Below, piece after piece: positions 35,406 to 51,972 of a stretch of DNA of 64,000 nucleotides (positions are counted from its first letter, which is position 1; each line of letters starts with the position of its first letter). The notes under the pieces are model-generated. The model searched no databases and had not been told where the DNA came from. It worked only from the letters and a program-made list of their open reading frames with translations. The DNA lies in the sequence record NC_004928.1. One strand, given 5' to 3'. This DNA is from Escherichia phage RB69. The translations under genes and the position numbers were made by a program.

Positions 35406-36092
35406 TTAGAAGTCGTGGGTAGAATCGGCTTCCATCGCAATAACATAACTTACTTGAGAGCTTTCAAACTTAGCTGCAACTTTATCACCAGCTCCCCACA
35501 ACATTACTTTATAGTTACCTGGCTGAATTTTCATATTAGCCATATTGATTACGAAGTTAAAGTTGTTAGAACCATCATAATCGGTAAGAGTCAAAGAATA
35601 CTTAGGACGAGTTAGTCCGGAATCTTCAACTTTATTATAGCCATTGATAACAATTTTACCATCTTTATTTGTAATAGCAATTGTATCAATCTGAAGACCA
35701 CGTGAAACTCGAAGCAATTGTTGAAGGTCTTCGGCTTTAATTTCAGTAATCACAGAAGCCACTGGGAATTGAATTGGCTTATTAGGAAAAACAATGGTGC
35801 TCTTGTCAGCGGCAGGCCAATAAACTGTGGAACGTGTATCTGCAATTTTAATATTACCATCAGTGTGCATTGAAATTTCAGCATCGTCAGACACTAGACT
35901 CAAAATGCTTAAGAAGCTATTCAAATCATAAAGTGCTACGTCAAAATCAATTTCATCAGAGATATTTGCTTCCGCATAAGTGGTGCCATTAACTGCACGA
36001 GTCATAATAAATTTACCTTGACTCAGCAGAATGCCTGAGTTAATAGAGGCAAAGTTTTTCAGAATAGCGATAGTATCTTTAGACAGTTTCAT
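35406..36092 (-). CDS. 45: sliding clamp gp45
   Basis: matches T4 gp45 from MKLSKDT; ORF track extends five codons upstream from a TTG. Confidence 0.9.
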   Translation of the reverse strand: MKLSKDTIAILKNFASINSGILLSQGKFIMTRAVNGTTYAEANISDEIDFDVALYDLNSFLSILSLVSDDAEISMHTDGNIKIADTRSTVYWPAADKSTIVFPNKPIQFPVASVITEIKAEDLQQLLRVSRGLQIDTIAITNKDGKIVINGYNKVEDSGLTRPKYSLTLTDYDGSNNFNFVINMANMKIQPGNYKVMLWGAGDKVAAKFESSQVSYVIAMEADSTHDF

Positions 36093-36134
36093 TTTATTTC
36101 CTTTCAAGACAATTCAAAGTTTATAACAAATTTA

Positions 36135-36551
36135 TTATGCAGCAACCATCTGCTTTTTAATAGCTTCAGGCAGTGATTCAATATATTCTGGAATTTTAGA
36201 AGCAACAATTTCGCCAGCTGCAATTAGTTGTTCGTCGGCATCAACACAATAGAAATCTTCTAGACGCTCAGAACCGTCTTTATCAAGAACGATTTTTCCG
36301 CCAGCTTCAATAGAATCTTTATAGTGCTTACGCATCAGATGAATCCACATATCAGATACATCGTTATCAATAAAACCATAAATCATAAAACGAGTTTCTT
36401 GTGGCAAAGATTGAAGTTTTTTAGCACTTGCGTCATCACAATGCAGGACCCATGCTTTACGAACACGATTATGGTTATGTGGGTTAGCGTCAGTACGGAT
36501 AGAAGTAACTTTCAGATCAGCAGCAGTGAAACCTTTAGCAGTAGTAAACAT
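36135..36551 (-). CDS. rpbA: RpbA-like RNA polymerase-binding protein
   Basis: 138-aa ORF at the T4 rpbA position. Confidence 0.5.
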   Translation of the reverse strand: MFTTAKGFTAADLKVTSIRTDANPHNHNRVRKAWVLHCDDASAKKLQSLPQETRFMIYGFIDNDVSDMWIHLMRKHYKDSIEAGGKIVLDKDGSERLEDFYCVDADEQLIAAGEIVASKIPEYIESLPEAIKKQMVAA

Positions 36552-36563
36552 ATTATTTCTCTC

Positions 36564-36764
36564 TTATTCGTAGAAGTCGGTAACTGTCCATGCGGAATTG
36601 CGATTAGACATTATTTTATTATACTCATCTTTAAAAGCAGATTTGAGCATTTGTTCAGTAACAATATGTTCTTCACCTGAAAACGTATTGGTCAGAACAT
36701 ATTTTTTAATTTCAGGGACAACAAGAAGATGTTGACCGGTTGAATACTCCATGTTGTTCTCCAT
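36564..36764 (-). CDS. hypothetical small protein (45.2 position)
   Basis: 66-aa ORF. Confidence 0.4.
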   Translation of the reverse strand: MENNMEYSTGQHLLVVPEIKKYVLTNTFSGEEHIVTEQMLKSAFKDEYNKIMSNRNSAWTVTDFYE

Positions 36765-36806
36765 TTAATTTGATGTGGTCATTATAACCACATCGTGTTA
36801 AAGCGT

Positions 36807-38495: not shown

Positions 38496-38740
38496 ATGTA
38501 TTCTCTTCGAATGAAGTCCTCTACATATTTTAACATGTCATCTCTATCAGCAAAATACTCGTCTAGTTCTGCATACATAACAACACCCGGTGCGTACTCA
38601 CAGGTAACATACATTGTTCCAAAGAAACGAGGAGTTGTCTCCTCGTAATTCTCAGTCCATTCAACGATACCAATATAACCGTCACCAATACTAAATTCAT
38701 GACGATGGATTTCATAATCAGTCTTCGTCATTATACGCAT
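38492..38740 (-). CDS. hypothetical small protein (46.1 position)
   Basis: 82-aa ORF. Confidence 0.4.
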   Translation of the reverse strand: MRIMTKTDYEIHRHEFSIGDGYIGIVEWTENYEETTPRFFGTMYVTCEYAPGVVMYAELDEYFADRDDMLKYVEDFIRREYI

Positions 38741-38975
38741 CCTTGATACATGCTTCAGCCATTTTAAGAATAGAGCCAGGAGTATCGTTGTCCATTATAT
38801 TAAAGCTAAATTCAATAGCCCAGTCGGTGCAGACATGAACTGCTTTAACTTCATCGCCTTCAACGCGTAATGGCTCAATCCAATACTTGATAGTGTTCTC
38901 GAATCCATCATCATCTTTAACGTCCATTTCAACTTCAAGCCTGAGTCCAGCATTGTTAAATTCATCTAAAGTCAT
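38718..38975 (-). CDS. hypothetical small protein (46.2 position)
   Basis: 85-aa ORF. Confidence 0.4.
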   Translation of the reverse strand: MTLDEFNNAGLRLEVEMDVKDDDGFENTIKYWIEPLRVEGDEVKAVHVCTDWAIEFSFNIMDNDTPGSILKMAEACIKDAYNDED

Positions 38976-39991
38976 TGTGTTGCCTCAATATAAAGTTCGT
39001 TGGAATATTTGACCAGCGCTTCTCTGTCTTCGTCTGAGATATCTGGAATCGCGTCAATATATTCTTTAATGATATCTTGAAGTGATTTAATCTCGATTTC
39101 CTGGTCGTCATCAGATTCAACACTGTTATCAACTTTAGAAACCATACGAAGAGAGTGAACTACTTTTTCAAGTTCAGATTCAAACTTAGTCAACTCTGAA
39201 TCAATTTCTGATACTATAACACGTACGGCTAGATTGGTATAATCAGAATAATTGATTTTGCCTTTAAACGGATAAGTGATTCGTCGATGCCATGTTGTTT
39301 CATTAGGAATAAATTCCATACGTTCAACATCAGTGTCAAATACCCAGAATCCGCGCGGGTCGTTCTCATCACCTGCAGTAAGAGTCCATGGTGTCCCAAT
39401 ATATTTGACGTTAGCAGCTTCAGAGATTGTGTGGAAGTGGCCGGACCAGACTTGTTTATAAGTCTTTAAGAAATCAGGTTCAAGCCCATGAGACTTCATC
39501 CCTTTATAGAAATAAAAGCCATTCAGTTCCCAATGACCAACACAATACGCGGCAGAAGAAGTCTTGATGTGCTCTAAGATTTCACCTGTATTTTCTTCAC
39601 ACATCCATGGAACGATATCAATCAGACATCCGTCAAAATCTACAGTAGTTGGATGCTCGTAAATAGTAAAGTTTTCAAATTGAGTTAACAATTCAGAAAC
39701 AGTGTTAGGTGTTATTGTATTCTTAAACGCCATGTCATGGTTTCCTATCGTGACATGAACGTGAATACCTGCTTTAGAAATCATATCAACGATTTCACGA
39801 TTGAATTCCATTGTACGATGTGTTATTGCTTTACGGACATCAAACCAATCGCCGTACTGAATCCAAGTTTTAATCCCGTGTTTCTTAGAGTATTCAATTG
39901 CTTGACGAATACCATCACGTTGAATATCTTGAACCCATGGGTCGTCTTGTTTGACTCCGATATGGAAGTCGCCTAAGTGCAAAATTTTCAT
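38972..39991 (-). CDS. 47: recombination nuclease gp47 (Mre11/SbcD-like)
   Basis: 339 aa; phosphoesterase motifs LHLGDFH and GNHD. Confidence 0.9.
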   Translation of the reverse strand: MKILHLGDFHIGVKQDDPWVQDIQRDGIRQAIEYSKKHGIKTWIQYGDWFDVRKAITHRTMEFNREIVDMISKAGIHVHVTIGNHDMAFKNTITPNTVSELLTQFENFTIYEHPTTVDFDGCLIDIVPWMCEENTGEILEHIKTSSAAYCVGHWELNGFYFYKGMKSHGLEPDFLKTYKQVWSGHFHTISEAANVKYIGTPWTLTAGDENDPRGFWVFDTDVERMEFIPNETTWHRRITYPFKGKINYSDYTNLAVRVIVSEIDSELTKFESELEKVVHSLRMVSKVDNSVESDDDQEIEIKSLQDIIKEYIDAIPDISDEDREALVKYSNELYIEATQ

Positions 39992-40014
39992 ATTATTTCC
40001 TCATTAGTTAATTC

Positions 40015-40039
40015 ATTTTATCATCCGTTTATAAAGCAA
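40015..40039 (-). promoter_or_regulatory. T4 middle-type promoter (MotA box TGCTTTA, 11 nt, TAAAAT) upstream of gene 47
   Basis: minus strand tttttGCTTTAtaaacggatgaTAAAAT then GAGGA and ATG. Confidence 0.5.
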
Positions 40040-40062
40040 AAAAGGAACTCCGAAGAGTTCCT
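40035..40062 (-). terminator. Intrinsic terminator with UUCG tetraloop
   Basis: aggaactc-cgaa-gagttcct followed by UUUUUGCUUU on the minus-strand RNA. Confidence 0.6.
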
Positions 40063-40234
40063 ATCCACATAGTACACCGTACAGAGGCTCATTTGAACTT
40101 TTAAATCGAATGGGCTTGTATGTAATAGTTCCTTCGGCTTTAGCTTTATCATAAGACTCTTTAAAACGTCTCGTTCTTTCTGCTTTGCCTTTACGGATTT
40201 TATCGAAATTTTCAGAGGTCAGGTCGTTCGTCAT
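40061..40234 (-). CDS. hypothetical small protein
   Basis: 57 aa translated by hand (MTNDLTSENFDKIRKGKAERTRRFKESYDKAKAEG...); its stop lies inside the terminator stem. Confidence 0.35.
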   Translation of the reverse strand: MTNDLTSENFDKIRKGKAERTRRFKESYDKAKAEGTITYKPIRFKSSNEPLYGVLCG

Positions 40235-40273
40235 GCATAATTATCTCTCAGAAAATACCTAAACCGATTTCTC

Positions 40274-40495
40274 TCATCGTTTCCACCATTTCTTAACTTG
40301 AAATGAATCAACCCACACGAGTTGTTTTGGGTCTGCCTTTACAATAGGCGGACAAATTTCTGTAATAGAACCGTCGTGATATTCCTTTTCAGAAATTTTA
40401 ACACAAAGAGGACCTCCCAATTTAAGGGTGAACCCTGCGTTCAGCTTCAGACGTTTAAACTTTGTTTGAACTAGCGCCATTAATGATGTCCTCAA
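40274..40495 (-). CDS. hypothetical small protein
   Basis: 73-aa ORF. Confidence 0.4.
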   Translation of the reverse strand: MRTSLMALVQTKFKRLKLNAGFTLKLGGPLCVKISEKEYHDGSITEICPPIVKADPKQLVWVDSFQVKKWWKR

Positions 40496-40778
40496 TAGCT
40501 TGACGAGTAGTAACCCACTGGATTTTAATTAACTTGTCATTGTATGGTTGTCGTAGAATATCCCGAGATTTCTTAATAGCATATTCGTAAGCTTCGAAGT
40601 TGTTTTGAATTGCTGCTTCTTGAGCATGAGCATAAAGACGGTTTAGTTCAAAACGATTCTTTTTAAGAATCTTTTCGGATTTTTTACGTGCTTCAGCTTC
40701 ATTTTTCTTTTGGATTTCTTGTAGCATTTTAGCTACTGCATCTTCTGCTTCTTTATTTTCAATAATCTCGGTAGTCAT
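40455..40778 (-). CDS. hypothetical protein
   Basis: 107-aa ORF. Confidence 0.4.
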   Translation of the reverse strand: MTTEIIENKEAEDAVAKMLQEIQKKNEAEARKKSEKILKKNRFELNRLYAHAQEAAIQNNFEAYEYAIKKSRDILRQPYNDKLIKIQWVTTRQAIEDIINGASSNKV

Positions 40779-40779
40779 A

Positions 40780-40995
40780 TTATCTCATTAAATTAAAATA
40801 AAAACGTCCATCCTCTTCAATACAGAACTCGTACTCAACTGGAGTCCCATTTATTGAAAATGACACGTCATGCGGGTTCAAAGGGTCGATGTCAAAATTA
40901 ATTTTAAATTCACGACCCAACAGTTTTACCAAATAAGGGATTGCTTCGTCAAAAGGTTCTTCTAAGTAGTTAGAGATGTCAATTGTCATCCTCAT
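40780..40995 (-). CDS. hypothetical small protein
   Basis: ORF track extends to 41073 and overlaps gene 55; internal Met27 start assumed. Confidence 0.35.
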
Positions 40996-41554
40996 ATAAA
41001 AAATCCAAACTAGGCGAATCGCTAACAACTTCCTTCTTTTCAGCCCCAGGAGCTTTATAAGCGGATTCTTCATAATGCGTCATTTTATCGTAGATGTCTT
41101 GAATAAACGTTTCATCTACCAACGCTACCATATCATCGTCATGACTGTCGTAGACATTATGAACGAAGTAACTATATTTCTTTGCAACTTCCTTACGTTC
41201 TTTTTTGATACGTTGGACAAAAGCATTAAAACAAGCTCGAGTTATGTATGCATGTGGGTTATTGTACTTAGTTTCGTCGAAATTATGAAGTCCCTTAATA
41301 GAGGCTTCAATCCCATCTGCAATCATCTCCTGCTTCCAAGACTGGGTATATCCTGAAAAGTTGAAACGTTTGGACAGGCCTTCGGCGATAAGCATAATTG
41401 CTAAACCGATGGTATCATTCTGACGAATAATTTTGTTTGGGTCTTTATTATTTAAGAGCTCCTTTTTCCACTCGATTATCCCGGCGAGAAGCTCTTTATT
41501 ATTCACATAGTTATTTTTAGGTTTTTGTTCAGTCATAAGTACCTCTTGGCTCAA
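40979..41554 (-). CDS. 55: late-transcription sigma factor gp55
   Basis: 191 aa; near-colinear with T4 gp55 (NYVNNKELL...[30 protein letters not shown]). Confidence 0.9.
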
Positions 41555-41608
41555 TTCATAGGTCTATTATATCATAATATTTAGAGACCTATCTTAAAGC
41601 ACGAGATA

Positions 41609-41878
41609 CTATCGGAGCAAACAATAAGCCCGAAACACTTTTTCCATTGAACGTTTGAACTCATTGATATCGATATAAAGCTCAGTAAGACCGGCATTAT
41701 AAAGAAAATCTAAAAAGTTCTCATGTGTTTCGTTATAGTCGCCTTCGTTTAATTGAGATACATGAGTTTCCCAAAAACCAACACCTTTAACGAATGGAAA
41801 ATACGTGACTTTCATGTATTCGTCAACATAAAATTCGCCCAGCTTTTCTTCAGTTATACTGATTCGAGTTAATTTCAT
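41609..41878 (-). CDS. hypothetical protein
   Basis: 89-aa ORF. Confidence 0.4.
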   Translation of the reverse strand: MKLTRISITEEKLGEFYVDEYMKVTYFPFVKGVGFWETHVSQLNEGDYNETHENFLDFLYNAGLTELYIDINEFKRSMEKVFRAYCLLR

Positions 41879-42102
41879 TCTATTTCCTTTGCTGCTTCAA
41901 GAGCAGCATCCAGCGAATCAAATTGGTCGACGAAATCAATATTCAACGCATCGTCAACCGTAGCATATAACCACCATTGTTTGAATTCATATTCTAGGAT
42001 AAATCCAGGCCCTTCAATCTGAGGAAGACCTAGGCTATTTGTACCAACTTCGTAACCAGCTAGACGCAGGTCATTAATCAAAGTTTCTGTTAATACGCTC
42101 AT
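41875..42102 (-). CDS. hypothetical protein
   Basis: 75-aa ORF. Confidence 0.4.
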   Translation of the reverse strand: MSVLTETLINDLRLAGYEVGTNSLGLPQIEGPGFILEYEFKQWWLYATVDDALNIDFVDQFDSLDAALEAAKEIE

Positions 42103-42482
42103 TTTACCGCCTTAACAATTTTCAAGTCAGCGAATTTTTTCTTACGTTGATTTTTCATACTACGGATAGTCTTTTCAGAGATTTCATGTTTCTGATAAGC
42201 TTTAGATTCAACACCAAATGCAGCACCGTCAAATTCAGAAAGAATATATTGTACTCGAATTTCACGAATAGAATTACGTCCAATTTTCTGGTCCGTGTTT
42301 TTGCATGATTTCCATAAAGACGGAAATTCCCACGCGTCAAGAACTTGAGGAGTAACAATATTGCCAGATTCCAGAAGAGCAACAACTTTATCGAAAGCGA
42401 AAGAATTAACTACGCTTTTGATTTTAGTAGACATATTATTTTCCTCGGTTATTTTATTATCCAACGAGAGAATTATACTCAT
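42099..42482 (-). CDS. hypothetical protein
   Basis: 127-aa ORF. Confidence 0.45.
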   Translation of the reverse strand: MSIILSLDNKITEENNMSTKIKSVVNSFAFDKVVALLESGNIVTPQVLDAWEFPSLWKSCKNTDQKIGRNSIREIRVQYILSEFDGAAFGVESKAYQKHEISEKTIRSMKNQRKKKFADLKIVKAVK

Positions 42483-42500
42483 CTCTCGAGAGTTTGTATA

Positions 42501-42740
42501 CTATTTTTGAAGCATGGAAAGTAAGTAATTTGTATCACGTGGAGTAATATCAACACCCATATCAAAGATGCCTTTATAGATTGGGTATTTGTTTTCGGTT
42601 GTATGGAAGCTGAAACTATTTCCATCACAACTAACAGTAATAGCATCTGTTAAAATGTCATACTCAATCCTAACAATTGAATCCCCAATTTTAACGTCGA
42701 GGTGTTTTTTGAATTTGATAAAATCTAATTCTTGGGCCAT
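42501..42740 (-). CDS. hypothetical protein
   Basis: 79-aa ORF. Confidence 0.4.
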   Translation of the reverse strand: MAQELDFIKFKKHLDVKIGDSIVRIEYDILTDAITVSCDGNSFSFHTTENKYPIYKGIFDMGVDITPRDTNYLLSMLQK

Positions 42741-43018
42741 GATATTTTCCTCATTTTAAGACGATAGGAAGATAATAACATGTCTTCCCTATCGTTGTAC
42801 ATTATTAACCGAACTTTTTTGGCGCCTTTCCAGCCTTCGTACATAACTGCACAAGTCAGTAGTACAGCGTGCTGGCATTCTTTGTATTTGTAAATCCAGA
42901 ACCAGCGTAAGAAGTCTTCATCCTCAACGCCGGTGGATTTCATATTGGCAAAGAATTCGGCACGTTCTTCACGAAGCTTTTGCGATAACATAGATTCAGG
43001 ATTCATTTTGTGTTCCAC
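42725..43018 (-). CDS. hypothetical protein
   Basis: 97-aa ORF. Confidence 0.4.
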   Translation of the reverse strand: MEHKMNPESMLSQKLREERAEFFANMKSTGVEDEDFLRWFWIYKYKECQHAVLLTCAVMYEGWKGAKKVRLIMYNDREDMLLSSYRLKMRKISWPKN

Positions 43019-43137
43019 ACCCCATTTTCATCGATGAACTTAATCCAGTCATTTACAGACCATTTAGTTGTATCACCCTTTGGATTAACATTTAAAGTAT
43101 ATAATCCCTGCTTAAAAAGCATTCGTTTGATATTCAT
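43003..43137 (-). CDS. hypothetical small protein
   Basis: ORF track 43003..43230; internal Met32 start preceded by GAGGA avoids overlap with the upstream gene. Confidence 0.3.
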   Translation of the reverse strand: MNIKRMLFKQGLYTLNVNPKGDTTKWSVNDWIKFIDENGVWNTK

Positions 43138-43144
43138 AATTTCC

Positions 43145-43438
43145 TCAACTGTAACGATAACATTCGTTAGCTTTACGTTTGGCTTCAGTATGAGAAGTAT
43201 TATAATCATAATCTTCTTTACTGTAAACATCTTTTTTCAACTTACGAACTTCTTTGCGGAGTTGTCGATTCATTTCATTCTTGACTTCAGAATCAACGCC
43301 TTTCATACGTTTCCATTTATCTGAGCGGAAAATGTTTTCAACCATGTCTTTGTGGCTAACACCGTCAGGAGCTTTACGTTTACCAATGTAATAAAAATCT
43401 TTAGAAGACAAATCTTTACGACGATACGTTTTACCCAT
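43145..43438 (-). CDS. hypothetical basic protein
   Basis: ORF track 43145..43489; internal start Met18 assumed. Confidence 0.4.
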   Translation of the reverse strand: MGKTYRRKDLSSKDFYYIGKRKAPDGVSHKDMVENIFRSDKWKRMKGVDSEVKNEMNRQLRKEVRKLKKDVYSKEDYDYNTSHTEAKRKANECYRYS

Positions 43439-43445
43439 AAGTACC

Positions 43446-43694
43446 TCAGAGATTGATTTCAATGATACGTTTGATATACTGCACATCACTTACTGAAAGG
43501 TCTTTAAGACCAATTGATTCTAAACGTTGTGCAAATGTTAACATATGGGTGAAGTCCAATTGCGTTTTAGTCATTTGATAAGTGTGAATGCCATTAGCAA
43601 ATTCAACCTTCAAATCGTTAATGGTGACGAAAATCATTCGTTCATCATTCATGTTAAGAACTAGAACAACTTTCTTTGAGTCTAAACTAATCAT
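43446..43694 (-). CDS. hypothetical protein
   Basis: 82-aa ORF. Confidence 0.4.
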   Translation of the reverse strand: MISLDSKKVVLVLNMNDERMIFVTINDLKVEFANGIHTYQMTKTQLDFTHMLTFAQRLESIGLKDLSVSDVQYIKRIIEINL

Positions 43695-43873
43695 AGTTTA
43701 ATTTCCTTCGCAATTGAACAGAAGATGCCACGGTCACAAATCATTTCACCGATTCCAGGATACTTGATTGAGCGATACCAAACATCTAGAGTTGAAACTT
43801 TGGTTATTATAATAACATTGCCGTTAACGGAATAATACTGATCAACCTTAATTTCTTTATCTTCAATTGTCAT
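43691..43873 (-). CDS. hypothetical small protein
   Basis: ORF track 43691..44035; likely start Met55 after AGGAGAA. Confidence 0.35.
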   Translation of the reverse strand: MTIEDKEIKVDQYYSVNGNVIIITKVSTLDVWYRSIKYPGIGEMICDRGIFCSIAKEIKL

Positions 43874-44088
43874 TTTGTTTTCCTCTGTGGTAGATGATGC
43901 TAATCTTAACATATCTATCGAGGATGTAAACTGTTTTATGAAAATATTTTTGATTTGAGAGGGGCACAAGGAGATAGTGAAGTGAAGATTCCAATGGATT
44001 ATATTAGAAATGAGATAAAGAAGACCAGGCGGCACCTGGTCAATCTTCTATGATATCAGAGTCGTATCCTAATGAAATCAAGGACTTT

Positions 44089-44361
44089 TTAAACTCTGCA
44101 ATATCTTTGTTTCTTATCATTTAAAAATATGACAGGATAACGAATATTAAGTGAAGTGAATCCTGCACGTTTAGCAAGAGATACGATTAAAGGACGGTCA
44201 TATTCAATCTTACCATTATTAGTGAGGACTTTATAAAATGTATAAGGAGCATTGAGCTCCTTTAAAAGTTTTGTAACAGTATAACATCCTGGACAACGTC
44301 CAACTTCTTCAGGGATGCCATATATTTCAATCTTGTTCTTTAAGTTCGAGTTTTGTTCCAC
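44089..44361 (-). CDS. nrdH: thioredoxin-fold glutaredoxin-like protein (NrdH-like)
   Basis: CPGC active site after a short beta-strand (KIEIYGIP); no in-frame ATG, so GTG start at 44361 assumed. Confidence 0.45.
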   Translation of the reverse strand: MEQNSNLKNKIEIYGIPEEVGRCPGCYTVTKLLKELNAPYTFYKVLTNNGKIEYDRPLIVSLAKRAGFTSLNIRYPVIFLNDKKQRYCRV

Positions 44362-44644
44362 GAGAAATAATTCCTTGGTAAGCCCAATAAGGAGGATTAA
44401 CAGAATCCTCACCAGAGTTTTCTTCAGGAAAATAAACCTGGATAACAAATCCAGATGCATCAAAGGTAAAATAAACCGTAGGCAGTTCACCTAACAATTC
44501 GGCACGAGCATTAATTTCTTCGAGATCCCGTTCACGTCCAGCCCAAAAACTAGGATTTAGATTACATTCGTAAAAATAATAGTCATTACCGAACATATCA
44601 AACCCCTTCCAACTCTCTACCACATACCGCTCAAAACTAATCAT
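44327..44644 (-). CDS. hypothetical protein
   Basis: 105-aa ORF. Confidence 0.4.
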   Translation of the reverse strand: MISFERYVVESWKGFDMFGNDYYFYECNLNPSFWAGRERDLEEINARAELLGELPTVYFTFDASGFVIQVYFPEENSGEDSVNPPYWAYQGIISRGTKLELKEQD

Positions 44645-44646
44645 AA

Positions 44647-44862
44647 TTAAGCCTTTTTATCAAGAACAGAATTCAGTTTATTAGTAATTTTGTCCAAACG
44701 TTCATTGAATTCGCTGGAGGATAAACCCTTTTCCGGAGAAATTAAACTAATCACGAAAAATACACCAGTAAAAGGAATAAGAAAAATAGCTCCAACTGCC
44801 ATAAACAGAAAGAATGTTACAGTTGTAAGAAAATCAGCTAAACCTTTACGAAATTTATACAT
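44647..44862 (-). CDS. small membrane protein
   Basis: 71 aa, hydrophobic. Confidence 0.4.
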   Translation of the reverse strand: MYKFRKGLADFLTTVTFFLFMAVGAIFLIPFTGVFFVISLISPEKGLSSSEFNERLDKITNKLNSVLDKKA

Positions 44863-44976
44863 ATTTACCCTTAATTAATTAACCAAACATTGATAAGCAC
44901 TAAACTATATTGCGAATAAAATTCTGGGCCAAAATGAAAAATCATATCATTTATAGTGTCCATAATGTAATTCAAT

Positions 44977-45447
44977 TTAATCATGTTTCCACACCCCATC
45001 GGTATTTGACCAAAGTCGCTGATTATCTGATCCTCGCCATAGCTTTTTGGTCGGAAGATTTTTCTCATACTTCCCATCAATAATAACATCAACATATTTA
45101 AGCATTTCTAGTTGTTTAATATCTTCAAACTTGTATCCTGTCCACAACCAAATGCTTTTATTGGGATAAAGATTTTTTACTGTTTGAGCAATGCAATGAA
45201 TAACATCTCGATTGTCAGGATAGAGAGGGTCACCTCCGGTTATAGTCAATCCTTCTATATAATCGTTATTCAAACATTCAATTAATTGTTCTAGTGTTTC
45301 ACCAGTGAATGGAACACCATTTCTAGCATTCCATGTTGATTTATTATAACACCCTTCACATTTATGCAAACAACCTGTAACGAAAAGAACGACCCTACAA
45401 CCAGGGCCATTCACAAAATCGCAAGGATAAAATCTATCATAATTCAT
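44977..45447 (-). CDS. nrdG: anaerobic ribonucleotide reductase activating protein NrdG (radical SAM)
   Basis: 156 aa; CLHKCEGC cluster. Confidence 0.85.
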   Translation of the reverse strand: MNYDRFYPCDFVNGPGCRVVLFVTGCLHKCEGCYNKSTWNARNGVPFTGETLEQLIECLNNDYIEGLTITGGDPLYPDNRDVIHCIAQTVKNLYPNKSIWLWTGYKFEDIKQLEMLKYVDVIIDGKYEKNLPTKKLWRGSDNQRLWSNTDGVWKHD

Positions 45448-47261
45448 TGGTGTTTAACCCTATGCATGATTTCTTTATTTTTACCGAGATTAAATCCGCG
45501 TTCGTTCGGATTTCCCAAATAACCGCATGTTCTTCTTATGGTGTTCATCTTTTTAGGATCAGTTTCTCCACAAATAGAACAAACAAATCCGGTTTCAGTA
45601 GGAGTCATTTCATGGGTACTTCCGCATGTAAAACATTTATCTACTGGCATATTAACACCAAAATAATCTAAATGTTGTGCAGCATAATCCCACACGGCCT
45701 CAAGACCTTTTAAGTTATTTTTCATATCAGGAAGTTCAACATAAGAAATGTGACCACCTGTCGCAATGAAATGATATGGCGCTTCACGAGAAATCTTTTC
45801 AAACGGAGTAATATTTTCTTCTACTGAAACATGGAAACTATTAGTGTACCAGCCTTTATCAGTAACATCCTTTACACTTCCATATTTTTCTGTATCAAGT
45901 TTACAGAAGCGATAACAAAGGTTTTCAGCAGGTGTAGAATACAAGCTAAAAGCAAACCCAGTTCTTTCAGTCCATTGTTTAAGAAGAGCATTCATTTTAG
46001 TTAAAATTTCTTGTCCAATATCACGACCGACAAGAATATTCAATTCGTGAATACCAATGTATCCTAGGGACACTGAACTTCTACCATTTTTAAATAACTC
46101 AATTATGTCATCATCAGGTTTAAGACGAACCCCGAATGCACCTTCTTGGTAAAGAATAGGAGCAACAGTAGCTTTAACTCCTTTTAAGGAACTAATTCTA
46201 CACATCAAAGCTTCAAAACACAGGTCCATTCGCTCATCGAACAATTCAGTAAATTTCTGTTCATTGAACTGTGTTCCAATATAAGAATCTAACGCAATAC
46301 GAGGAAGATTCAGTGTTACAACGCCAAGATTATTGCGTCCATCAAGAATTTCATTGCCAGTTGAATCTTTCCATATGCTCAAGAAACTACGGCAACCCAT
46401 TGGAGAAACAGGAACTGAAGAACCGGTAATAGCTTTATTATTCTTAACCGAAATAATGTCAGGATACATTCTTTTGCTTGCGCACTCTAACGCAAGTTGT
46501 TTAATATCATAGTTCGGATCATCTTTATAAAGATTAACACCTTCTTCAACAAACATAACAAGTTTAGGAAAAATAGGAGTTATTCCATCACGACCAAGAC
46601 CTTTAATGCGGTTTTTAAGAATTGCTTTCTGAATCATTCGTTCAGTCCAGTCAGTTCCCGTACCAAATGTAATTGTTACAAAAGGCGTTTGTCCGTTTGA
46701 ACTAAAGAGAGTATTTACTTCATATTCATAAGCTTGGAATGCATCGTATACGTCTTTTTCTGTTTTAGACTGGGCATAATTCAACGCATCAGCGATTTGC
46801 CATTTTTCTGCATCCTCAATATGTTTTGCATAGGTGCGTTTAACATAAGGAGAAAGTACTTTATCTACATTAGCAAAAGTCGTTCCGCCGTATTGATGGG
46901 AAGCAACCTGTGCAGTAATTTGTGCCATAATTGCAGTAGCAACGCCAATAGATTTAGGCGTTTCAATTTGAGCATTGCCTAATTTAAATCCATTCTCAAG
47001 CATCCCCTTTAAATCGACTAAACAGCAATTGGTAAACGGAAGAGCAGGAGAATAATCAATATCATGCATGTGAATGATTCCGCTTTCATGCGCATGCATA
47101 ATAAAAGACGGGACCATATTTTTGGCAATGTGCTTAGACACAATACCAGCCATAAGGTCCCGTTGAGTTGGAAAAACACGAGAATCTTTATTAGCATTCT
47201 CGTTCAAAAGATCTTTATTAGTTTTATAAATTAATCCTTCAATTTCTTTTTCAATTTTCAT
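45444..47261 (-). CDS. nrdD: anaerobic ribonucleoside-triphosphate reductase NrdD, uninterrupted
   Basis: 605 aa; glycyl-radical motif RRTCGYLG near the C-terminus; continuous ORF, no intron. Confidence 0.9.
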   Translation of the reverse strand: MKIEKEIEGLIYKTNKDLLNENANKDSRVFPTQRDLMAGIVSKHIAKNMVPSFIMHAHESGIIHMHDIDYSPALPFTNCCLVDLKGMLENGFKLGNAQIETPKSIGVATAIMAQITAQVASHQYGGTTFANVDKVLSPYVKRTYAKHIEDAEKWQIADALNYAQSKTEKDVYDAFQAYEYEVNTLFSSNGQTPFVTITFGTGTDWTERMIQKAILKNRIKGLGRDGITPIFPKLVMFVEEGVNLYKDDPNYDIKQLALECASKRMYPDIISVKNNKAITGSSVPVSPMGCRSFLSIWKDSTGNEILDGRNNLGVVTLNLPRIALDSYIGTQFNEQKFTELFDERMDLCFEALMCRISSLKGVKATVAPILYQEGAFGVRLKPDDDIIELFKNGRSSVSLGYIGIHELNILVGRDIGQEILTKMNALLKQWTERTGFAFSLYSTPAENLCYRFCKLDTEKYGSVKDVTDKGWYTNSFHVSVEENITPFEKISREAPYHFIATGGHISYVELPDMKNNLKGLEAVWDYAAQHLDYFGVNMPVDKCFTCGSTHEMTPTETGFVCSICGETDPKKMNTIRRTCGYLGNPNERGFNLGKNKEIMHRVKHQ

Positions 47262-47731
47262 TTTAAACTCTTTCTAAGCTGCTTTTTGAATGAAGCTATT
47301 AATTGTGTTTTAGTATCAGATTCATTATATTCAAATCCTCTTTGAAGCATCTCAGCCATCATTTCCTCTTTACCTAGTCTTGAGAACTCTTTAGTTTTGT
47401 CTGGAACAAAATTAGGATGGATATTATTATCAGAATAATCTTGTTTCAAATAAGCAAGAAGAGCTTCAAGCCATTCTAAGTAGTCAACGTTTTGTCCTTT
47501 CAAACCGGAACGGTTGAACTTATGCTTCATTTGACCTTCTGCTGCGTTGCACAGATTACAGAGTAATCCACGAACTCTACCGGCTTTTGGCCCGTTTAAT
47601 TCATGGTCGTGGTCAAGATGGTTACCTTGAACATCAGGGTCTAATTCACGGTGGCAAATAGGACACTTACCGTTCTGTGCATCATAAAATTTTTGTTTTT
47701 CTTCTTTATATTTTGCGCCTGATAATAACAT
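47258..47731 (-). CDS. 49: endonuclease VII (Holliday-junction resolvase) gp49
   Basis: 157 aa; near-identical to T4 endo VII as I recall it. Confidence 0.9.
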   Translation of the reverse strand: MLLSGAKYKEEKQKFYDAQNGKCPICHRELDPDVQGNHLDHDHELNGPKAGRVRGLLCNLCNAAEGQMKHKFNRSGLKGQNVDYLEWLEALLAYLKQDYSDNNIHPNFVPDKTKEFSRLGKEEMMAEMLQRGFEYNESDTKTQLIASFKKQLRKSLK

Positions 47732-47737
47732 GATAAA

Positions 47738-47768
47738 CCCTTACCTTAAATAGATAAGGGTATTTATA
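47738..47768 (-). promoter_or_regulatory. late promoter TATAAATA (47761-47768) with hairpin (47738-47760) covering the gene 49 ribosome-binding site
   Basis: minus strand TATAAATAcccttatctatttaaggtaagggtttatcATG; ccctta/taaggg stem includes the AAGG site. Confidence 0.55.
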
Positions 47769-47770
47769 AT

Positions 47771-47950
47771 TTAGTAAACGTTATAAAAGTCTCGATGAAA
47801 ACGTTTATATTGACGAATCATTTTCTTAGTAGGACGTGTTACTGAAATAATTGAAGTAGTCATAGTCGGATTGTTTGGAGCGCCAGTCATAACAAATTTC
47901 CAGGATTTTTGGCCATTTTTTCTTTCACCATAAAATAATTCAGTTTTCAT
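47771..47950 (-). CDS. small basic-tail protein, family member 1
   Basis: 59 aa translated by hand (MKTELFYGERKNGQKSWKFVMTGAPNNPTMTTSIISVTRPTKKMIRQYKRFHRDFYNVY). Confidence 0.4.
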   Translation of the reverse strand: MKTELFYGERKNGQKSWKFVMTGAPNNPTMTTSIISVTRPTKKMIRQYKRFHRDFYNVY

Positions 47951-47959
47951 AATAAACCT

Positions 47960-48373
47960 TTAACTTAAACGTCTTTCTAAATATTCAATGTATTCCGCTG
48001 CGGCTTGCATCAGATTACCTTCATAACCGTCATTATTTTCTTGGGCGGCTAATTTAGCTAAAGCATAAGAAATACGTTCACCTTCGAATTCGCCAAGTCC
48101 ACCATCACAAACTACTTGGTCAATTTCTTCGAGTTCATCTATTGAATGGGATTCCCAGAAGCACCAAAGAGAAGTATCACGGTCATAGATGCAAAGTTTC
48201 TCACCTGTGTTCAACATCACTTCGATAATGCCATGGTCGCCATAACCATCTTCGGTAGTAGTACCAATTACCTTGATGATTGTTCCTTTCTTTAATTCAG
48301 GAAACTTGACTTGTAGTTCTTCATCTTCTTTAACAATCTTGAACCATTTACCGCGAGTTTCAGAAATATTCAT
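47960..48373 (-). CDS. hypothetical acidic protein
   Basis: ORF track extends to 48511; likely start Met47 (MNISETRGKW). Confidence 0.45.
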   Translation of the reverse strand: MNISETRGKWFKIVKEDEELQVKFPELKKGTIIKVIGTTTEDGYGDHGIIEVMLNTGEKLCIYDRDTSLWCFWESHSIDELEEIDQVVCDGGLGEFEGERISYALAKLAAQENNDGYEGNLMQAAAEYIEYLERRLS

Positions 48374-48374
48374 A

Positions 48375-48546
48375 TCAATATTCTCTATAAAAGTTACGAT
48401 GAGAACGTTTAGCTTTGCGAAGCTGACGTTTAGTAGGACGAACTGTAAATGGTTGTCCAGAGAAAAAATTCGGATCGGTTTTAATAAGCAAATACCAATC
48501 ATGTTTGCCATTTTTTTAATAAACGGTACAATAATTTAACTTGCAT
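48375..48546 (-). pseudogene. frameshifted paralogue of 47771..47950, broken at an A7 tract (48511-48517)
   Basis: frame 1 gives MQVKLLYRLLKKWQT then stop; the -1 frame continues KNGKHDWYLLIKTDPNFFSGQPFTVRPTKRQLRKAKRSHRNFYREY; removing one A restores a single ORF. Confidence 0.4.
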
Positions 48547-49028
48547 AATAATCTCTTCCCATTTCCATATCAATTAATTCATTTATTGAAGGTTCATCAT
48601 AACATGGTTCTTCGTCGTTGTAAACCGTTTCGACGTCTGGCTCGACAGTCTCCCATCGAGCAGAATACCACGGTTTAACCCCGGAGTTTATTGAGCTCTT
48701 CATAATCAATCCAGGATTCTAGCCCTGACGGCAGGTCACATTCAATGTTCCACAGAAGCTCTTCAATGGCTTGCAGGCGATTATATTCTTCAACGGTAAT
48801 GGTAACCATTGGTGCAACCGGTTCTGCCTTTTTAACCATCATATCGTTCATCAGGACGTAAAGGTCATCACGAACGACAGTGTCCGTTCCAACCCCATGA
48901 TTTGGCTTCGTAAGCTAATGATGAAGGGAGCACATTTAAAACTTCAAAAATAGTTGGAGCATCAGGACCAAGTTCATTGGCACAAACTTCGTATACATCT
49001 TGGAAATCTTTAAGATTTAATGAATATG

Positions 49029-49292
49029 TCATTTAAAATATTCTCGCAGTTGGTCAAATCCACCAATGTGACTTCCGTCAGGAGCAAACACTTGAGGCAT
49101 AGTCAATCCGACTTGTGATTCACGTCCAAGCTTAACCAGAAGCTCAGCAATTTTCTCATCATCAAAAACACCTTTTTCTGGCATAACATTAATGAATTCG
49201 AACGGCTGTTTCTTAACAGTCAGCAATCGTTTCGCATTATCACAATAAATGCATTTATGAATAGTAGAGTCATACCCGTACACTTTAAACAT
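49029..49292 (-). CDS. nrdC: phage thioredoxin/glutaredoxin NrdC
   Basis: matches T4 NrdC from MFKVYGYDS..CIYCDNAKRLL; ORF track adds five codons upstream. Confidence 0.85.
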   Translation of the reverse strand: MFKVYGYDSTIHKCIYCDNAKRLLTVKKQPFEFINVMPEKGVFDDEKIAELLVKLGRESQVGLTMPQVFAPDGSHIGGFDQLREYFK

Positions 49293-49698
49293 TATTTTTC
49301 CTTTCATCGATTAAATATGCAATGCCAAATACAATACATGTAATAAAACCTGTGATACAGATAGAAACCAACAACACTGTACCAAAGAACCAAATCAAGT
49401 TATCTTTAGTAGTTTGTTTGATATCCATCTCACGAATTTCTATAGCTATCGTATCACCTTTATTCAGAAGCGTATAAAACGATGGTGATACACGCCTGTC
49501 AAAAACTCGTCCTTGCTCATCTTTATAGACTGCAATAAATTCTAATTTAGAATATTTTCCTGTAGATTGGCCTGAGATTAATTCCACTACCTCCACAGGA
49601 ATTACTTTAGTTTCCATGTAAGTATTCTGGCTGTTCCAAATGAATGGAATAATAGCAAAAACTAAAGCTGCGATAAAACAACGAAGGCTATATCTCAT
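49285..49698 (-). CDS. membrane protein
   Basis: 137 aa; N- and C-terminal hydrophobic helices. Confidence 0.45.
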   Translation of the reverse strand: MRYSLRCFIAALVFAIIPFIWNSQNTYMETKVIPVEVVELISGQSTGKYSKLEFIAVYKDEQGRVFDRRVSPSFYTLLNKGDTIAIEIREMDIKQTTKDNLIWFFGTVLLVSICITGFITCIVFGIAYLIDERKNNV

Positions 49699-50003
49699 TA
49701 TAATGTTCTCTCAAATTTGTGGAAGCATTTACGGCATTTCAATTTCAAGTTATCAGTGGTCCAGTTAACCAGTTGGACTTGGATAGTTCCACATTCCGGA
49801 TATGGATGGTTTGATGCCGATTTGGCAGCATTTTCACGTCGTTCAACCATTTTCATTATTTCGTTCCATGCTGGAGGAACGAACTCTTCTTCACCATGAA
49901 TTTTATCTCGCTGAACAAATTCAATCTTTGAACTATCGTCAATAAACTTAACCAAGCCATGATTAGTGCTCATATCAATATCCTCTAAAAGACGTAGTTT
50001 CAT
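49698..50003 (-). CDS. hypothetical protein, possible zinc-binding C-terminus
   Basis: 101 aa; C-terminal Cys/His pairs. Confidence 0.4.
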   Translation of the reverse strand: MKLRLLEDIDMSTNHGLVKFIDDSSKIEFVQRDKIHGEEEFVPPAWNEIMKMVERRENAAKSASNHPYPECGTIQVQLVNWTTDNLKLKCRKCFHKFERTL

Positions 50004-50947
50004 TATAACACCTCAATGGCATTTCGTAAACCATCCGCTTTCGCATTCAGAGCTTTTAACGATTTAGTTTGTTCTGCAATCTGGGCTTCGACTTCTTTCA
50101 GACGAGATTTGAGATATTCGCGTTCTTCTCTTAAGTTATCAACCTTTTCTGCTTTAGGTTCTTTAATAGGCTTAAACACATTAGGGTTCTTCAGTTTAAT
50201 TTTAATTCGAGAACTGAATAACATTGAACCGTTATCTTCGGTTTCACTGTGCATTTCTACCACGTCCATGATTCTTAACATCATGCGAAGTTTATAAGAC
50301 AGCGAACGAACGGTTTTATTGTGCTTCTTAATTTCTTCAGCTTTCATGGTGCCGAGATTACGTGAGTAATAATAAGGAACCTGAATATCAATTGATAATG
50401 ATGCGGTACCATTACCGGTTGGTTTGAACACTGCAGTAACCCAATCTTTAACATGAACTTTATTTGTACGATCATCGCCGCCAGTGAATAATTTACAAGA
50501 ATGTTTAAAAAGCATATTCACTTGGTTATTGAATTCACAAGCAAATTTATCAGCAAATTTAGTTTCAGGAATGGTAGAGAACCAATCAGCTAAATGAGTC
50601 TTTTTAACATCATTAACAATAGTGAATTCAACCAAATCGGTTTTAGATGTCACAGATTTAATAAAGCTCGGCTTCATAAAGTTTTTGATGTTATCACGAG
50701 CTACAGTAGAAGATAATAAACGAGAACGTTTGAACCATTGAAGCAGTGTCCCTAATGAATGAGAATACGCATTCTGAGTATCTTTACAGATATGATTTTC
50801 TTGGCCCGTGTATGTACCAAAATCGCGAAGAATACCACTTACTACATCTCGGTGTGGAACATCAAATCCTAGTGCACCAACAGCGCGCTGGGCATGAACG
50901 TTAGCGATAAGACCGGCAAAGTATTCAATGTAATGTGAACGTGTCAT
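50003..50947 (-). CDS. hypothetical protein
   Basis: 314-aa ORF, coiled-coil C-terminus. Confidence 0.5.
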   Translation of the reverse strand: MTRSHYIEYFAGLIANVHAQRAVGALGFDVPHRDVVSGILRDFGTYTGQENHICKDTQNAYSHSLGTLLQWFKRSRLLSSTVARDNIKNFMKPSFIKSVTSKTDLVEFTIVNDVKKTHLADWFSTIPETKFADKFACEFNNQVNMLFKHSCKLFTGGDDRTNKVHVKDWVTAVFKPTGNGTASLSIDIQVPYYYSRNLGTMKAEEIKKHNKTVRSLSYKLRMMLRIMDVVEMHSETEDNGSMLFSSRIKIKLKNPNVFKPIKEPKAEKVDNLREEREYLKSRLKEVEAQIAEQTKSLKALNAKADGLRNAIEVL

Positions 50948-50963
50948 AATGTTTTCCTCTCGT

Positions 50964-51010
50964 TAAGATAGAAAGATTATACTCCAACCATCCTTGGTTG
51001 TAAACTGTTT
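50964..51010. repeat. about 48-bp direct repeat, copy 2 (first copy at 8891..8938)
   Basis: same sequence as copy 1 read by eye. Confidence 0.6.
50976..51005 (-). promoter_or_regulatory. early promoter (GTTTACA, 17 nt, TATAAT) within the repeat
   Basis: identical to the 8904..8933 cassette. Confidence 0.55.
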
Positions 51011-51069: not shown

Positions 51070-51972
51070 TTACAACACTTTGAGCATCACGGAGCTTAGC
51101 TTGTGCCTTGTCCAGTTCAACAGACAGTTGGTCCACGGGGGCTTTGATTTGGTTGTAATGGTAATCTTCGGCCGGAAGAAGGCATTAGAACATTTAGTTT
51201 TACTGCCGACAGTTTGCACACATTTGGCAACCTTTAACATACCAGGTTGTGCCGGAGCTGGAGAATATGCACCTAAGACTTCGGCATTACCAACTGGTGT
51301 TGCAGTAATTGACGCTTCGAACGTTGCATTTTCCTTTTTAAGATTTTGATAGTATTCAGAGTCTTTGTGCCACCATGGCGCAGGAACCTTTTTACCAATA
51401 GATACACGAGCCTGGATAGCAATATGACCCTTATTCTTGATGGGGTCGATAATATTAAGCTCACGAGAATAAATTGCTTTAATCTGGTGGATATTATCAC
51501 CTAACACTTCCAACGCTTGGTGGAATACACGAGCAACGTTATCATTCTTAGGTTTATACGTAAGAGTGAACTCATTCTCACTGATAACCATGATTTCCAA
51601 CTTATCGTAAGTATATTTCAAATGTTTCATGTTAATTGCTTGAGGACGAATACGAGAAGCAATGGCCAACAGATTGTTAAGGTTATTTCTGAACTGTTTA
51701 GCAAAATATTGTCCGTAGCCGCCGATACAAAAATTACGAAGTTTCTGTTTGGCTAATAAACGGCTGAACTCACCATTTTTAATGAACTCTTTAACGGGTG
51801 TGTTAGTAACGCATTCAAATTGAGTAAACTTACGAGAATTAATCCCATAATATGAACAGATTTCCTCAATCTCTTCAGGAGTCTTTACAGGCATACGGAT
51901 AGGATTAGGTCCTGGAGTATATGCGTTCGAGGTAAATTCTTTGATAAGTTCTCTACGTGTAATAGAAGCCAT
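51070..51972 (-). CDS. hypothetical protein
   Basis: 300-aa ORF. Confidence 0.5.
   Translation of the reverse strand: MASITRRELIKEFTSNAYTPGPNPIRMPVKTPEEIEEICSYYGINSRKFTQFECVTNTPVKEFIKNGEFSRLLAKQKLRNFCIGGYGQYFAKQFRNNLNNLLAIASRIRPQAINMKHLKYTYDKLEIMVISENEFTLTYKPKNDNVARVFHQALEVLGDNIHQIKAIYSRELNIIDPIKNKGHIAIQARVSIGKKVPAPWWHKDSEYYQNLKKENATFEASITATPVGNAEVLGAYSPAPAQPGMLKVAKCVQTVGSKTKCSNAFFRPKITITTKSKPPWTNCLLNWTRHKLSSVMLKVL

What the first reader, a model, noticed from the sequence alone, without database searches (positions are those of the whole stretch)
48375..49028. Fragmented coding region between nrdC and gene 49, with a homopolymer frameshift
This roughly 650-nt stretch has no ORF of 60 aa or more on the coding strand, unlike the rest of the window. 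The 3-prime part is a paralogue of the intact small gene 47771..47950, split across two frames at an A7 run (48511-48517). The 5-prime part (48547..49028) reads in three successive frames: a 53-aa ORF starting MTYSLNLKDF, then about 77 codons in the +1 frame, then about 45 codons in a third frame. This could be gene decay in a variable region, sequencing errors at homopolymers, or programmed frameshifting or transcriptional slippage.
Basis: seen in the sequence. Interest (0 to 1): 0.55.

Follow-up and report, generated by a model that had tools for sequence, protein, structure and literature searches.

The report
RB69 record error plus real frameshift
The broken-looking stretch between nrdC and gene 49 of phage RB69 is one sequencing error in the 2003 database record, one ordinary gene overlap, and one genuine single-base expansion of an A-run that truncates a small dispensable gene; it is ordinary, not a recoding signal.

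Summary
The window is the GenBank genome of phage RB69, coordinates 1-64000. Related Mosigviruses carry three intact small genes on the minus strand at 48375-49032: 118 aa, 55 aa, and a 56-aa DUF7279 protein.

1. The extra base at 48884/48885, and a miscall at 48948, are absent from four independent Illumina-based assemblies of RB69 and from all 82 related phage records. This is an error in the deposited Sanger sequence. It splits the real 118-aa gene into RB69ORF092c and RB69ORF091c.

2. The second frame change, near 48703, is the normal 29-nt overlap between the 118-aa gene and the intact 55-aa gene.

3. The A7 run (48511-48517) is present in all four resequenced RB69 assemblies. Every relative examined has A6. 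It is therefore a real RB69-specific A6-to-A7 frameshift, most likely from replication slippage. It truncates the DUF7279 gene to 15 codons.

I found no conserved frameshift arrangement, no significant downstream structure and no long slippery run, so programmed recoding is unsupported.

The same resequenced contigs differ from the record at 59 columns over about 36 kb. One of these is a published, experimentally confirmed error. Interest is low; the practical value is correcting the RB69 reference.

The parts
49029..49292 (-). nrdC (glutaredoxin/thioredoxin, 87 aa), upstream neighbour; its stop overlaps the start of the next gene
   Evidence: ORF list; relatives annotate the 264-nt gene here; PF00462 in the Logan gene calls
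48675..49032 (-). Real 118-aa gene (phrog_11244; C-terminal half phrog_3402). In the record it is split into RB69ORF092c (48868..49032, 54 aa) and RB69ORF091c (48675..48851, 58 aa)
   Evidence: Intact 357-nt gene in relatives and in resequenced RB69. The repaired protein is 100% identical to those of CEV1, NHEP10 and JN02. GenBank names; PHROG matches
48884..48885 (-). Spurious extra G (GG instead of G on the coding strand): a sequencing error of the deposited record that causes the first frameshift
   Evidence: Absent in 82/82 related phage records, in all fetched relatives and in four independent RB69 assemblies
48948..48948 (-). Base miscall in the record (ATT to TTT, Ile to Phe in the 118-aa protein)
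   Evidence: Resequenced RB69 and relatives all carry the other base
48536..48703 (-). Intact 55-aa gene (PF26863 Phage_T4_Y04J in precomputed calls; phrog_2382).
   Evidence: Same overlap annotated in relatives; exact protein found on 76 contigs, including RB69 AAP75992.1; PHROG match
48375..48546 (-). DUF7279 gene (56 aa in relatives), frameshifted in RB69. The 0 frame ends after 15 codons at TGA 48499-48501. The remnant 38-aa TTG ORF 48375..48491 is annotated RB69ORF089c
   Evidence: Alignment to relatives; PF23945 match of the intact relative protein and of the 38-aa remnant; GenBank name
48511..48517 (-). A7 run (A6 in all relatives): a genuine RB69-specific +1 expansion. In the 0 frame it reads TT[A AAA AAA] TGG
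   Evidence: A7 in window and in four separate RB69 assemblies. A6 in 15 fetched relatives, in 58/58 sampled of 144 phage records, and in 2 IMG/VR and 2 metagenome contigs
47960..48373 (-). pin (Lon protease inhibitor, PF10465, 137 aa), downstream neighbour. Its frame stays open upstream to 48511 (183-aa ORF)
47771..47950 (-). Intact DUF7279 paralogue (RB69ORF087c, 59 aa). It carries an A6 run at the homologous K-N-G codons (47916-47921)

Best explanation
The window is the 2003 Sanger-era GenBank sequence of phage RB69. The apparent fragmentation of 48375-49032 has three independent causes.

(1) A single spurious base at 48884/5, together with a miscall at 48948, is an error in the deposited record. 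Real RB69 has an intact 118-aa gene. The record's RB69ORF092c and RB69ORF091c are its two halves.

(2) The next frame change is the normal 29-nt overlap between that gene and an intact 55-aa gene.

(3) The A7 tract is a genuine RB69-lineage mutation. A conserved A6 tract (codons AAA-AAT, Lys-Asn) gained one A, most plausibly by DNA polymerase slippage during replication. The DUF7279 gene now terminates after 15 codons.

This small gene of unknown function has an intact paralogue 430 nt downstream, so the simplest reading is a tolerated strain-specific pseudogene, not a recoding device.

Shown: sequence identity to RB69, the presence or absence of each indel in independent assemblies and in relatives, and the gene overlap. 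Inferred: that slippage produced A7, and that the truncated gene is non-functional.
For: Identity of the window:
- The DNA polymerase is 100% identical over 903 aa to RB69 gp43 structures.
- The primers of Thomas et al. 2018 hit at exactly their published genome coordinates, 28094 and 29780.
- The fragments are named RB69ORF092c/091c/089c/087c on a 167,560-bp contig.

Relatives:
- They have intact 118-, 55- and 56-aa genes.
- The window differs from them by exactly two +1 insertions in this interval.

Independent resequencing:
- Logan assemblies from runs SRR16634590, SRR16629524, SRR16629523 and SRR16629527 are 99.7-99.9% identical to the window. All lack the extra base at 48884/5 and all keep A7.

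Error pattern of the record:
- The window differs from resequenced RB69 at 59 columns over 14039-34598 and 35441-50991. In 0/59 cases does any of six relatives share the window's version; in 45/59 at least one shares the resequenced version.
- One of these, at 29126/7, was shown by cloning and Sanger resequencing to be an error of the GenBank entry (PMC6024577).
- PMC13326640 also treats RB69 genes 46:47 and 52:53 as split by sequencing errors.

A7 is unique to RB69:
- A6 is found in 58/58 sampled of 144 records, in 15 fetched loci and in 4 environmental contigs.

Supporting context:
- Homopolymers of 6 or more bases in T-even phages show elevated indel frequencies, mean about 3e-4 (preprint 10.1101/2025.10.21.683753).
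- RB69 has at least one other frameshift reported as real (gene 30.3; PMC11825919).
Against: - The four RB69 assemblies have neighbouring SRA accession numbers and may all descend from one laboratory stock. A7 is therefore shown for the GenBank stock plus at least one other stock, not for every RB69 lineage.
- Assemblies give only the consensus, so a minority A6 subpopulation cannot be excluded.
- Loss of function of the truncated gene is inferred, not measured.
- Thomas et al. number their error C-29116, whereas my alignment places the only indel in their amplicon at 29126/29127. This 10-nt discrepancy in numbering is unresolved.
Confidence: 0.85

Rival explanations
1. Both frameshifts are sequencing errors of the record, and real RB69 has all three genes intact.
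For: The record is error-rich: 59 differences from resequenced RB69 in about 36 kb, many of them +1 insertions. Homopolymers are classic error sites.
Against: All four independent de novo Illumina-based assemblies of RB69 retain A7, while correcting every other record-specific indel in the covered 36 kb.
Confidence: 0.03
2. Both frameshifts are real gene decay in a variable, dispensable region of RB69.
For: The region is variable among relatives, for example a 315-bp insertion encoding a 98-aa protein in phiC120-like phages. RB69 has another frameshift reported as real.
Against: The extra base at 48884/5 is absent from all four resequenced RB69 assemblies. It sits 64 nt from a second record-only miscall at 48948.
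Confidence: 0.03
3. The A7 tract is a recoding site. Either +1 ribosomal frameshifting or transcriptional slippage restores the 56-aa DUF7279 protein, or a -1 shift on the in-frame A_AAA_AAA heptamer fuses the first 12 codons to the upstream-extended pin frame, giving a 195-aa product.
For: A_AAA_AAA lies exactly in the 0 frame. This motif is known to be shift-prone in E. coli (my own knowledge of the -1 frameshift literature). The -1 frame is open from 48511 through pin (183-aa ORF).
Against: - No relative has the frameshifted arrangement: all have A6 and a single ORF.
- In relatives a -1 shift runs into a stop within 4 codons (sequence).
- The 90 nt downstream folds no better than shuffles (z = -1.07), and no Shine-Dalgarno-like stimulator lies upstream (sequence).
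- Restoring DUF7279 needs +1, for which there is no hungry or stop codon.
- From my own knowledge, efficient transcriptional slippage by E. coli RNA polymerase needs runs of roughly 9 A/T, and this run is 7.
- pin has its own ATG and is intact.
Confidence: 0.04
4. The A6/A7 tract is a phage contingency locus: a selected, reversible on/off switch of the DUF7279 gene, with RB69 caught in the off state.
For: Tracts of 6 or more bases in T2 and T4 mutate at about 1e-4 to 1e-3 and can act as bet-hedging switches (preprint). The same A6 tract is conserved at the homologous codons of the paralogue (47916-47921).
Against: - Among about 80 independent relatives examined, only A6 is seen; the off state appears only in RB69.
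- The tract is explained by conserved Lys-Asn codons.
- There is no phenotype linked to DUF7279.
- Consensus in all four RB69 runs is A7.
Confidence: 0.07

Closest known systems
The published RB69 GenBank sequencing error that splits ORF053c/ORF052c (Thomas et al. 2018, PMC6024577), and the 46:47 split noted in PMC13326640
   Same: Same record and same type of defect: a single spurious base splits one gene into two annotated short ORFs. Relatives have one continuous gene. In the same resequenced contigs both sites are corrected.
   Different: The ORF092c/091c split at 48884/5 is not mentioned in the papers I read. It has been checked here only against public assemblies, not by targeted PCR and Sanger sequencing.
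Homopolymer-slippage frameshift alleles in T-even phages: T4 rII hot spots and the 'contingency loci' of Gomez et al. 2025; also the RB69 30.3 T-insertion (PMC11825919)
   Same: A one-base expansion of a mononucleotide run of 6 or more bases inside an ORF. It is reproducible in independent reads and truncates a non-essential accessory gene in a laboratory phage.
   Different: No phenotype, reversion frequency or population heterogeneity has been measured for this tract. The affected gene (DUF7279) has no known function.
dnaX-type -1 programmed frameshifting and IS-element or Thermus dnaX transcriptional slippage
   Same: An A-rich slippery run (A_AAA_AAA) lies in frame inside a coding sequence.
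   Different: The arrangement is not conserved, there is no stimulatory structure or upstream Shine-Dalgarno-like element, and the run is shorter than typical slippage tracts. The frame reached by -1 does not restore the ancestral protein.

Membership tests
Database sequencing error (artefactual frameshift) | The indel is absent when the same strain is independently resequenced | tested here: met
   For 48884/5: absent in four RB69 assemblies. For A7 this feature is NOT met, because A7 is present in all four.
Database sequencing error (artefactual frameshift) | Close relatives carry one continuous ORF across the site | tested here: met
   The 118-aa gene is intact in GADS24, p000y, phiC120 and WFbE185. 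82/82 records lack the extra base.
Database sequencing error (artefactual frameshift) | The record shows the same kind of defect elsewhere, including experimentally verified cases | tested here: met
   59 record-only differences in about 36 kb. The 29126/7 insertion was verified as an error by Thomas et al..
Frameshift pseudogene by homopolymer slippage | The indel lies in a mononucleotide run and is reproducible in independent sequencing | tested here: met
   A7 at 48511-17 in the window and in four assemblies.
Frameshift pseudogene by homopolymer slippage | The ancestral or related state is an uninterrupted ORF of a recognisable family | tested here: met
   A6 and a 56-aa PF23945 protein in all relatives.
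Frameshift pseudogene by homopolymer slippage | Loss of the full-length product | not testable with these tools
   Needs proteomics or a reporter assay. The 0 frame stops after 15 codons.
Programmed -1/+1 ribosomal frameshifting | The frameshifted two-ORF arrangement is conserved among relatives | tested here: not met
   It is unique to RB69; all others have A6 and a single ORF.
Programmed -1/+1 ribosomal frameshifting | A shift-prone motif lies in the correct frame | tested here: inconclusive
   A_AAA_AAA is in frame for a -1 shift, but -1 leads into the pin-frame ORF, not the DUF7279 frame. The +1 shift needed to restore DUF7279 has no recognisable motif.
Programmed -1/+1 ribosomal frameshifting | A stimulatory downstream structure or an upstream Shine-Dalgarno-like element | tested here: not met
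   The 90 nt downstream give MFE -15.4 kcal/mol, z = -1.07 against shuffles. No Shine-Dalgarno-like sequence upstream.
Transcriptional slippage | A long A/T run (typically 9 or more for E. coli RNA polymerase; my own knowledge) with a conserved out-of-frame arrangement | tested here: not met
   The run is 7 nt and the arrangement is not conserved.
Phage contingency locus (Gomez et al. 2025 preprint) | A simple repeat of 6 or more bases inside a gene | tested here: met
   A6/A7.
Phage contingency locus (Gomez et al. 2025 preprint) | Elevated, reversible indel frequency in populations, with a selectable phenotype | not testable with these tools
   Only consensus assemblies are available. Read-level analysis of the SRA runs is needed.

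The most novel reading that the evidence does not exclude
The conserved A6 tract at the Lys-Asn-Gly codons of DUF7279 genes is a functional switch. Under this reading RB69 carries the 'off' (A7) allele, which reverts at high frequency. Alternatively, in the A7 state the in-frame A_AAA_AAA heptamer gives low-level -1 frameshifting into the open pin frame, producing an N-terminally extended 195-aa Pin variant.
Probability: 0.05. Interest if true: 0.5.

Novelty: new member of a known kind. Interest (0 to 1): 0.12.

Why it matters
The value is mainly practical. RB69 is a model phage for DNA polymerase, replication and anti-defence studies, and its reference record (AY303349/NC_004928) is still used for annotation and variant calling.

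This work shows that RB69ORF092c and RB69ORF091c are one 118-aa gene. Its C-terminal half belongs to a family that PHROGs labels as an antitoxin.

It also shows that the first 64 kb of the record carry dozens of further single-base errors, some of which scramble conserved genes. Anyone interpreting RB69 'frameshifts', 'small ORFs' or escape mutations against this reference should use a corrected sequence.

The genuine A7 allele is a minor addition to the list of real RB69-specific gene inactivations.

Tried and rejected
- Exact-pattern scans of IMG/VR for the GG and A7 variants found nothing. A control scan showed only 2 IMG/VR and 2 metagenome contigs carry this locus at all (genome contigs 0). 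Those zeros are therefore uninformative.
- A 61-nt megablast query across the A-run returned nothing, probably because of the low-complexity filter or the word size. I replaced it with a 201-nt query.
- The RB69 record itself is not in the annotated phage collection.
- Look-ups with the RB69 DNA polymerase and gp46 returned only other Mosigviruses at about 97% identity, because those proteins are identical in many phages. RB69-specific proteins were needed to reach the RB69 resequencing contigs: pin, the 182-aa ORF and NrdD.
- I tested the idea of a programmed frameshift by folding the downstream RNA and by checking conservation. I rejected it.
- A promoter and terminator scan showed nothing beyond chance in the interval.
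- The weak Pfam match of RB69ORF091c to T7 gp5.9 (E = 0.0027, below the curated cut-off) was not pursued.

Full report
**What the window is.** All long genes lie on the minus strand, and the gene order is that of a T4-type phage: rIIA ... gp43 ... nrdD, 49, pin, nrdC.
- The 903-aa DNA polymerase ORF is identical over its full length to the RB69 gp43 crystal-structure sequence (1CLQ, 1IH7).
- The two cloning primers of Thomas et al. 2018 (PMC6024577) match at 28094 and at 29747-29774. These are exactly the RB69 genome coordinates 28,094-29,780 stated in the paper.
- The short ORFs of the flagged interval exist in NCBI as RB69ORF092c, 091c, 089c and 087c on a 167,560-bp contig.
- The window is therefore RB69 GenBank coordinates 1-64000. 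The record is not in the annotated phage collection, where the best hits are other Mosigviruses at 96-98% identity.

**The observation.** On the coding strand, 48375-49032 holds ORFs of 54, 58, 57/55 and 38 aa and an A7 run at 48511-48517. In GADS24, p000y, phiC120 and WFbE185 the orthologous interval holds three intact genes:
- a 357-nt gene encoding 118 aa;
- a 168-nt gene encoding 55 aa, overlapping the previous gene by 29 nt;
- a 171-nt gene encoding 56 aa.

These are followed by pin, a 59-aa gene and gene 49. A four-way alignment shows the window differs in length at exactly two places: CGGAC instead of CGAC at 48884/5, and A7 instead of A6.

The 55-aa gene (48536..48703) is intact in the window and identical to a protein seen on 76 contigs. 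The 56-aa gene and the 59-aa gene at 47771..47950 both match PF23945 (DUF7279), which confirms the paralogy.

**Are the two frameshifts real?** None of 82 phage records sharing the 61-nt segment around 48884 has the extra base.

Exact look-ups of RB69-specific proteins (pin, NrdD and a 182-aa ORF) retrieved de novo Logan assemblies of public sequencing runs that are 99.7-100% identical to the window. They come from SRR16634590 (a 42-kb contig, seen in five samples), SRR16629523, SRR16629524, SRR16629526, SRR16629527 and SRR29299748.

The four assemblies that cover the interval agree with each other:
- none has the extra base at 48884/5;
- all have T instead of A at 48948;
- all retain A7 at 48511-17.

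The 118-aa gene is called intact in them, and its product is 100% identical to that of phages CEV1, NHEP10 and JN02.

In contrast, A6 is found everywhere else:
- in all 15 non-RB69 loci fetched;
- in 58 of 58 rows sampled evenly from 144 phage records, each spanning 200 bases for the 201-base query;
- in the only two IMG/VR contigs and two metagenome contigs that carry the site.

The record as a whole. Comparing the window with three relatives revealed many window-specific single-base indels, mostly insertions. Over 14039-34598 and 35441-50991 the resequenced RB69 contigs differ from the window at 59 alignment columns. These include:
- three +1 insertions within 80 nt of gene 31 (22532, 22589, 22610);
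- three +1 insertions at 42293, 42312 and 42324;
- clusters of G/C miscalls at 14611-14782;
- the insertions at 24953 and 29126.

In none of the 59 cases does any of six relatives carry the window's version in a 19-nt context. In 45 cases at least one relative carries the resequenced version.

The 29126/7 insertion is the only indel inside the amplicon that Thomas et al. cloned and resequenced. [quoted passage not shown] They number the base C-29116, a roughly 10-nt discrepancy that I could not resolve.

A 2026 NAR paper likewise treats RB69 genes 46:47 and 52:53 as split by sequencing errors. The record is thus demonstrably error-prone, and the resequenced contigs are a valid arbiter.

**Interpretation.**
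- Frameshift 1 (48884/5) and the neighbouring miscall are record errors. RB69ORF092c and RB69ORF091c are the two halves of one 118-aa gene.
- The second frame change is a normal overlap.
- Frameshift 2 (A7) is a genuine mutation of the RB69 lineage.

The tract encodes the conserved Lys-Asn of a K-N-G motif. The paralogue carries an A6 run at the same codons (47916-47921).

Runs of 6 or more bases in T2 and T4 show indel frequencies around 3e-4 (preprint 10.1101/2025.10.21.683753). Replication slippage is therefore the obvious origin. This is an inference.

The 0 frame ends after 15 codons (TGA at 48499-48501). The remnant 38-aa ORF starts with TTG and has no evident ribosome-binding site. With an intact paralogue 430 nt downstream, a tolerated pseudogene is the simplest reading. 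RB69 has at least one other reported frameshift, in gene 30.3 (PMC11825919).

**Recoding hypotheses.**
- Restoring DUF7279 requires a +1 shift or an mRNA lacking one A. No +1 motif is present, and 7 As is short for efficient transcriptional slippage (my own knowledge).
- The tract does form an in-frame A_AAA_AAA heptamer. A -1 shift there would enter the 183-aa ORF that runs into pin, giving a 195-aa fusion.
- However, no relative shares this arrangement, and in relatives a -1 shift meets a stop within four codons.
- The downstream 90 nt fold no better than shuffled controls (z = -1.07), and pin has its own start codon.
- I give recoding about 4%, and an adaptive contingency-switch reading about 7%.

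**Function of the affected genes.**
- The 118-aa protein matches phrog_11244. Its C-terminal 55 residues match phrog_3402, labelled 'antitoxin from a toxin-antitoxin system'. This domain occurs as a stand-alone gene of about 50 aa in Tequatroviruses.
- DUF7279 and the 55-aa protein have no known function.

**Verdict.** The finding is explained by ordinary causes: one record error, one gene overlap and one strain-specific homopolymer frameshift. It is of low biological novelty, but it is useful as a correction to a widely used reference genome.

Noticed in passing
window 14039-50991: The deposited RB69 sequence differs from independent RB69 assemblies at 59 columns in about 36 kb, and relatives never share the record's version. 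Sites: 14091; 14611-14782 (G/C miscalls plus 2 insertions); 15346-15428 (4 insertions); 17634 and 20502 (missing bases); 20485; 24953 (splits genes 46:47); 25160; 29126 (splits ORF053c/052c, published); 29788; 41480-41649; 42226-42605; 42787-42937; 43601; 44105; 49801-49814.
   Followed up: yes
window 22532, 22589, 22610 (gene 31) and 42293, 42312, 42324 (DUF7570 gene): There are two clusters of exactly three +1 insertions within 80 nt and 32 nt. Each keeps the ORF open but scrambles about 26 or about 10 codons. All six insertions are absent in resequenced RB69, so the deposited gp31 (114 aa rather than 113) and the 127-aa ORF at 42099..42482 contain out-of-frame segments. Why errors come in frame-restoring triplets is unexplained; possibly it reflects editing to keep ORFs open.
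   Followed up: partly
window 5344-5442, 7398, 8338-8506, 8881-8936, 51012, 51183-51259, 54003, 61381: These are further window-specific small indels relative to two or three relatives, including a net +3 cluster near the N-terminus of gp39 topoisomerase. They lie in parts of the window not covered by the resequenced contigs I fetched. They are likely more record errors but remain unverified.
   Followed up: no
L003 622-934 (phiC120) versus window about 49029: About a third of related phages carry a 315-bp insertion between nrdC and the 118-aa gene. It encodes a 98-aa PF26871 (Phage_T4_Y04L) protein and is flanked by a duplicated copy of the nrdC 3' end. RB69 lacks it.
   Followed up: partly
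window 48675-48851 (RB69ORF091c, residues 61-118 of the real 118-aa protein): The C-terminal half of the 118-aa protein matches phrog_3402 'antitoxin from a toxin-antitoxin system' (E = 1e-32). It is a stand-alone gene of about 50 aa in T2, RB18, RB68 and Klebsiella T4-like phages. There is also a weak, sub-threshold Pfam hit to T7 gp5.9, a RecBCD inhibitor (E = 0.0027). It is a possible anti-defence gene that the record error hides.
   Followed up: partly
window 47960-48511: The pin reading frame stays open 138 nt upstream of the pin ATG, overlapping the DUF7279 gene in another frame. Several GenBank records annotate this 180-183-aa ORF as 'protease inhibitor' in place of the 56-aa gene plus the 137-aa pin. 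This is probably misannotation.
   Followed up: partly
window 47916-47921: The intact DUF7279 paralogue carries an A6 run at the codons homologous to the A7 site, the K-N-G motif. The slippage-prone tract is thus a conserved feature of the family.
   Followed up: no
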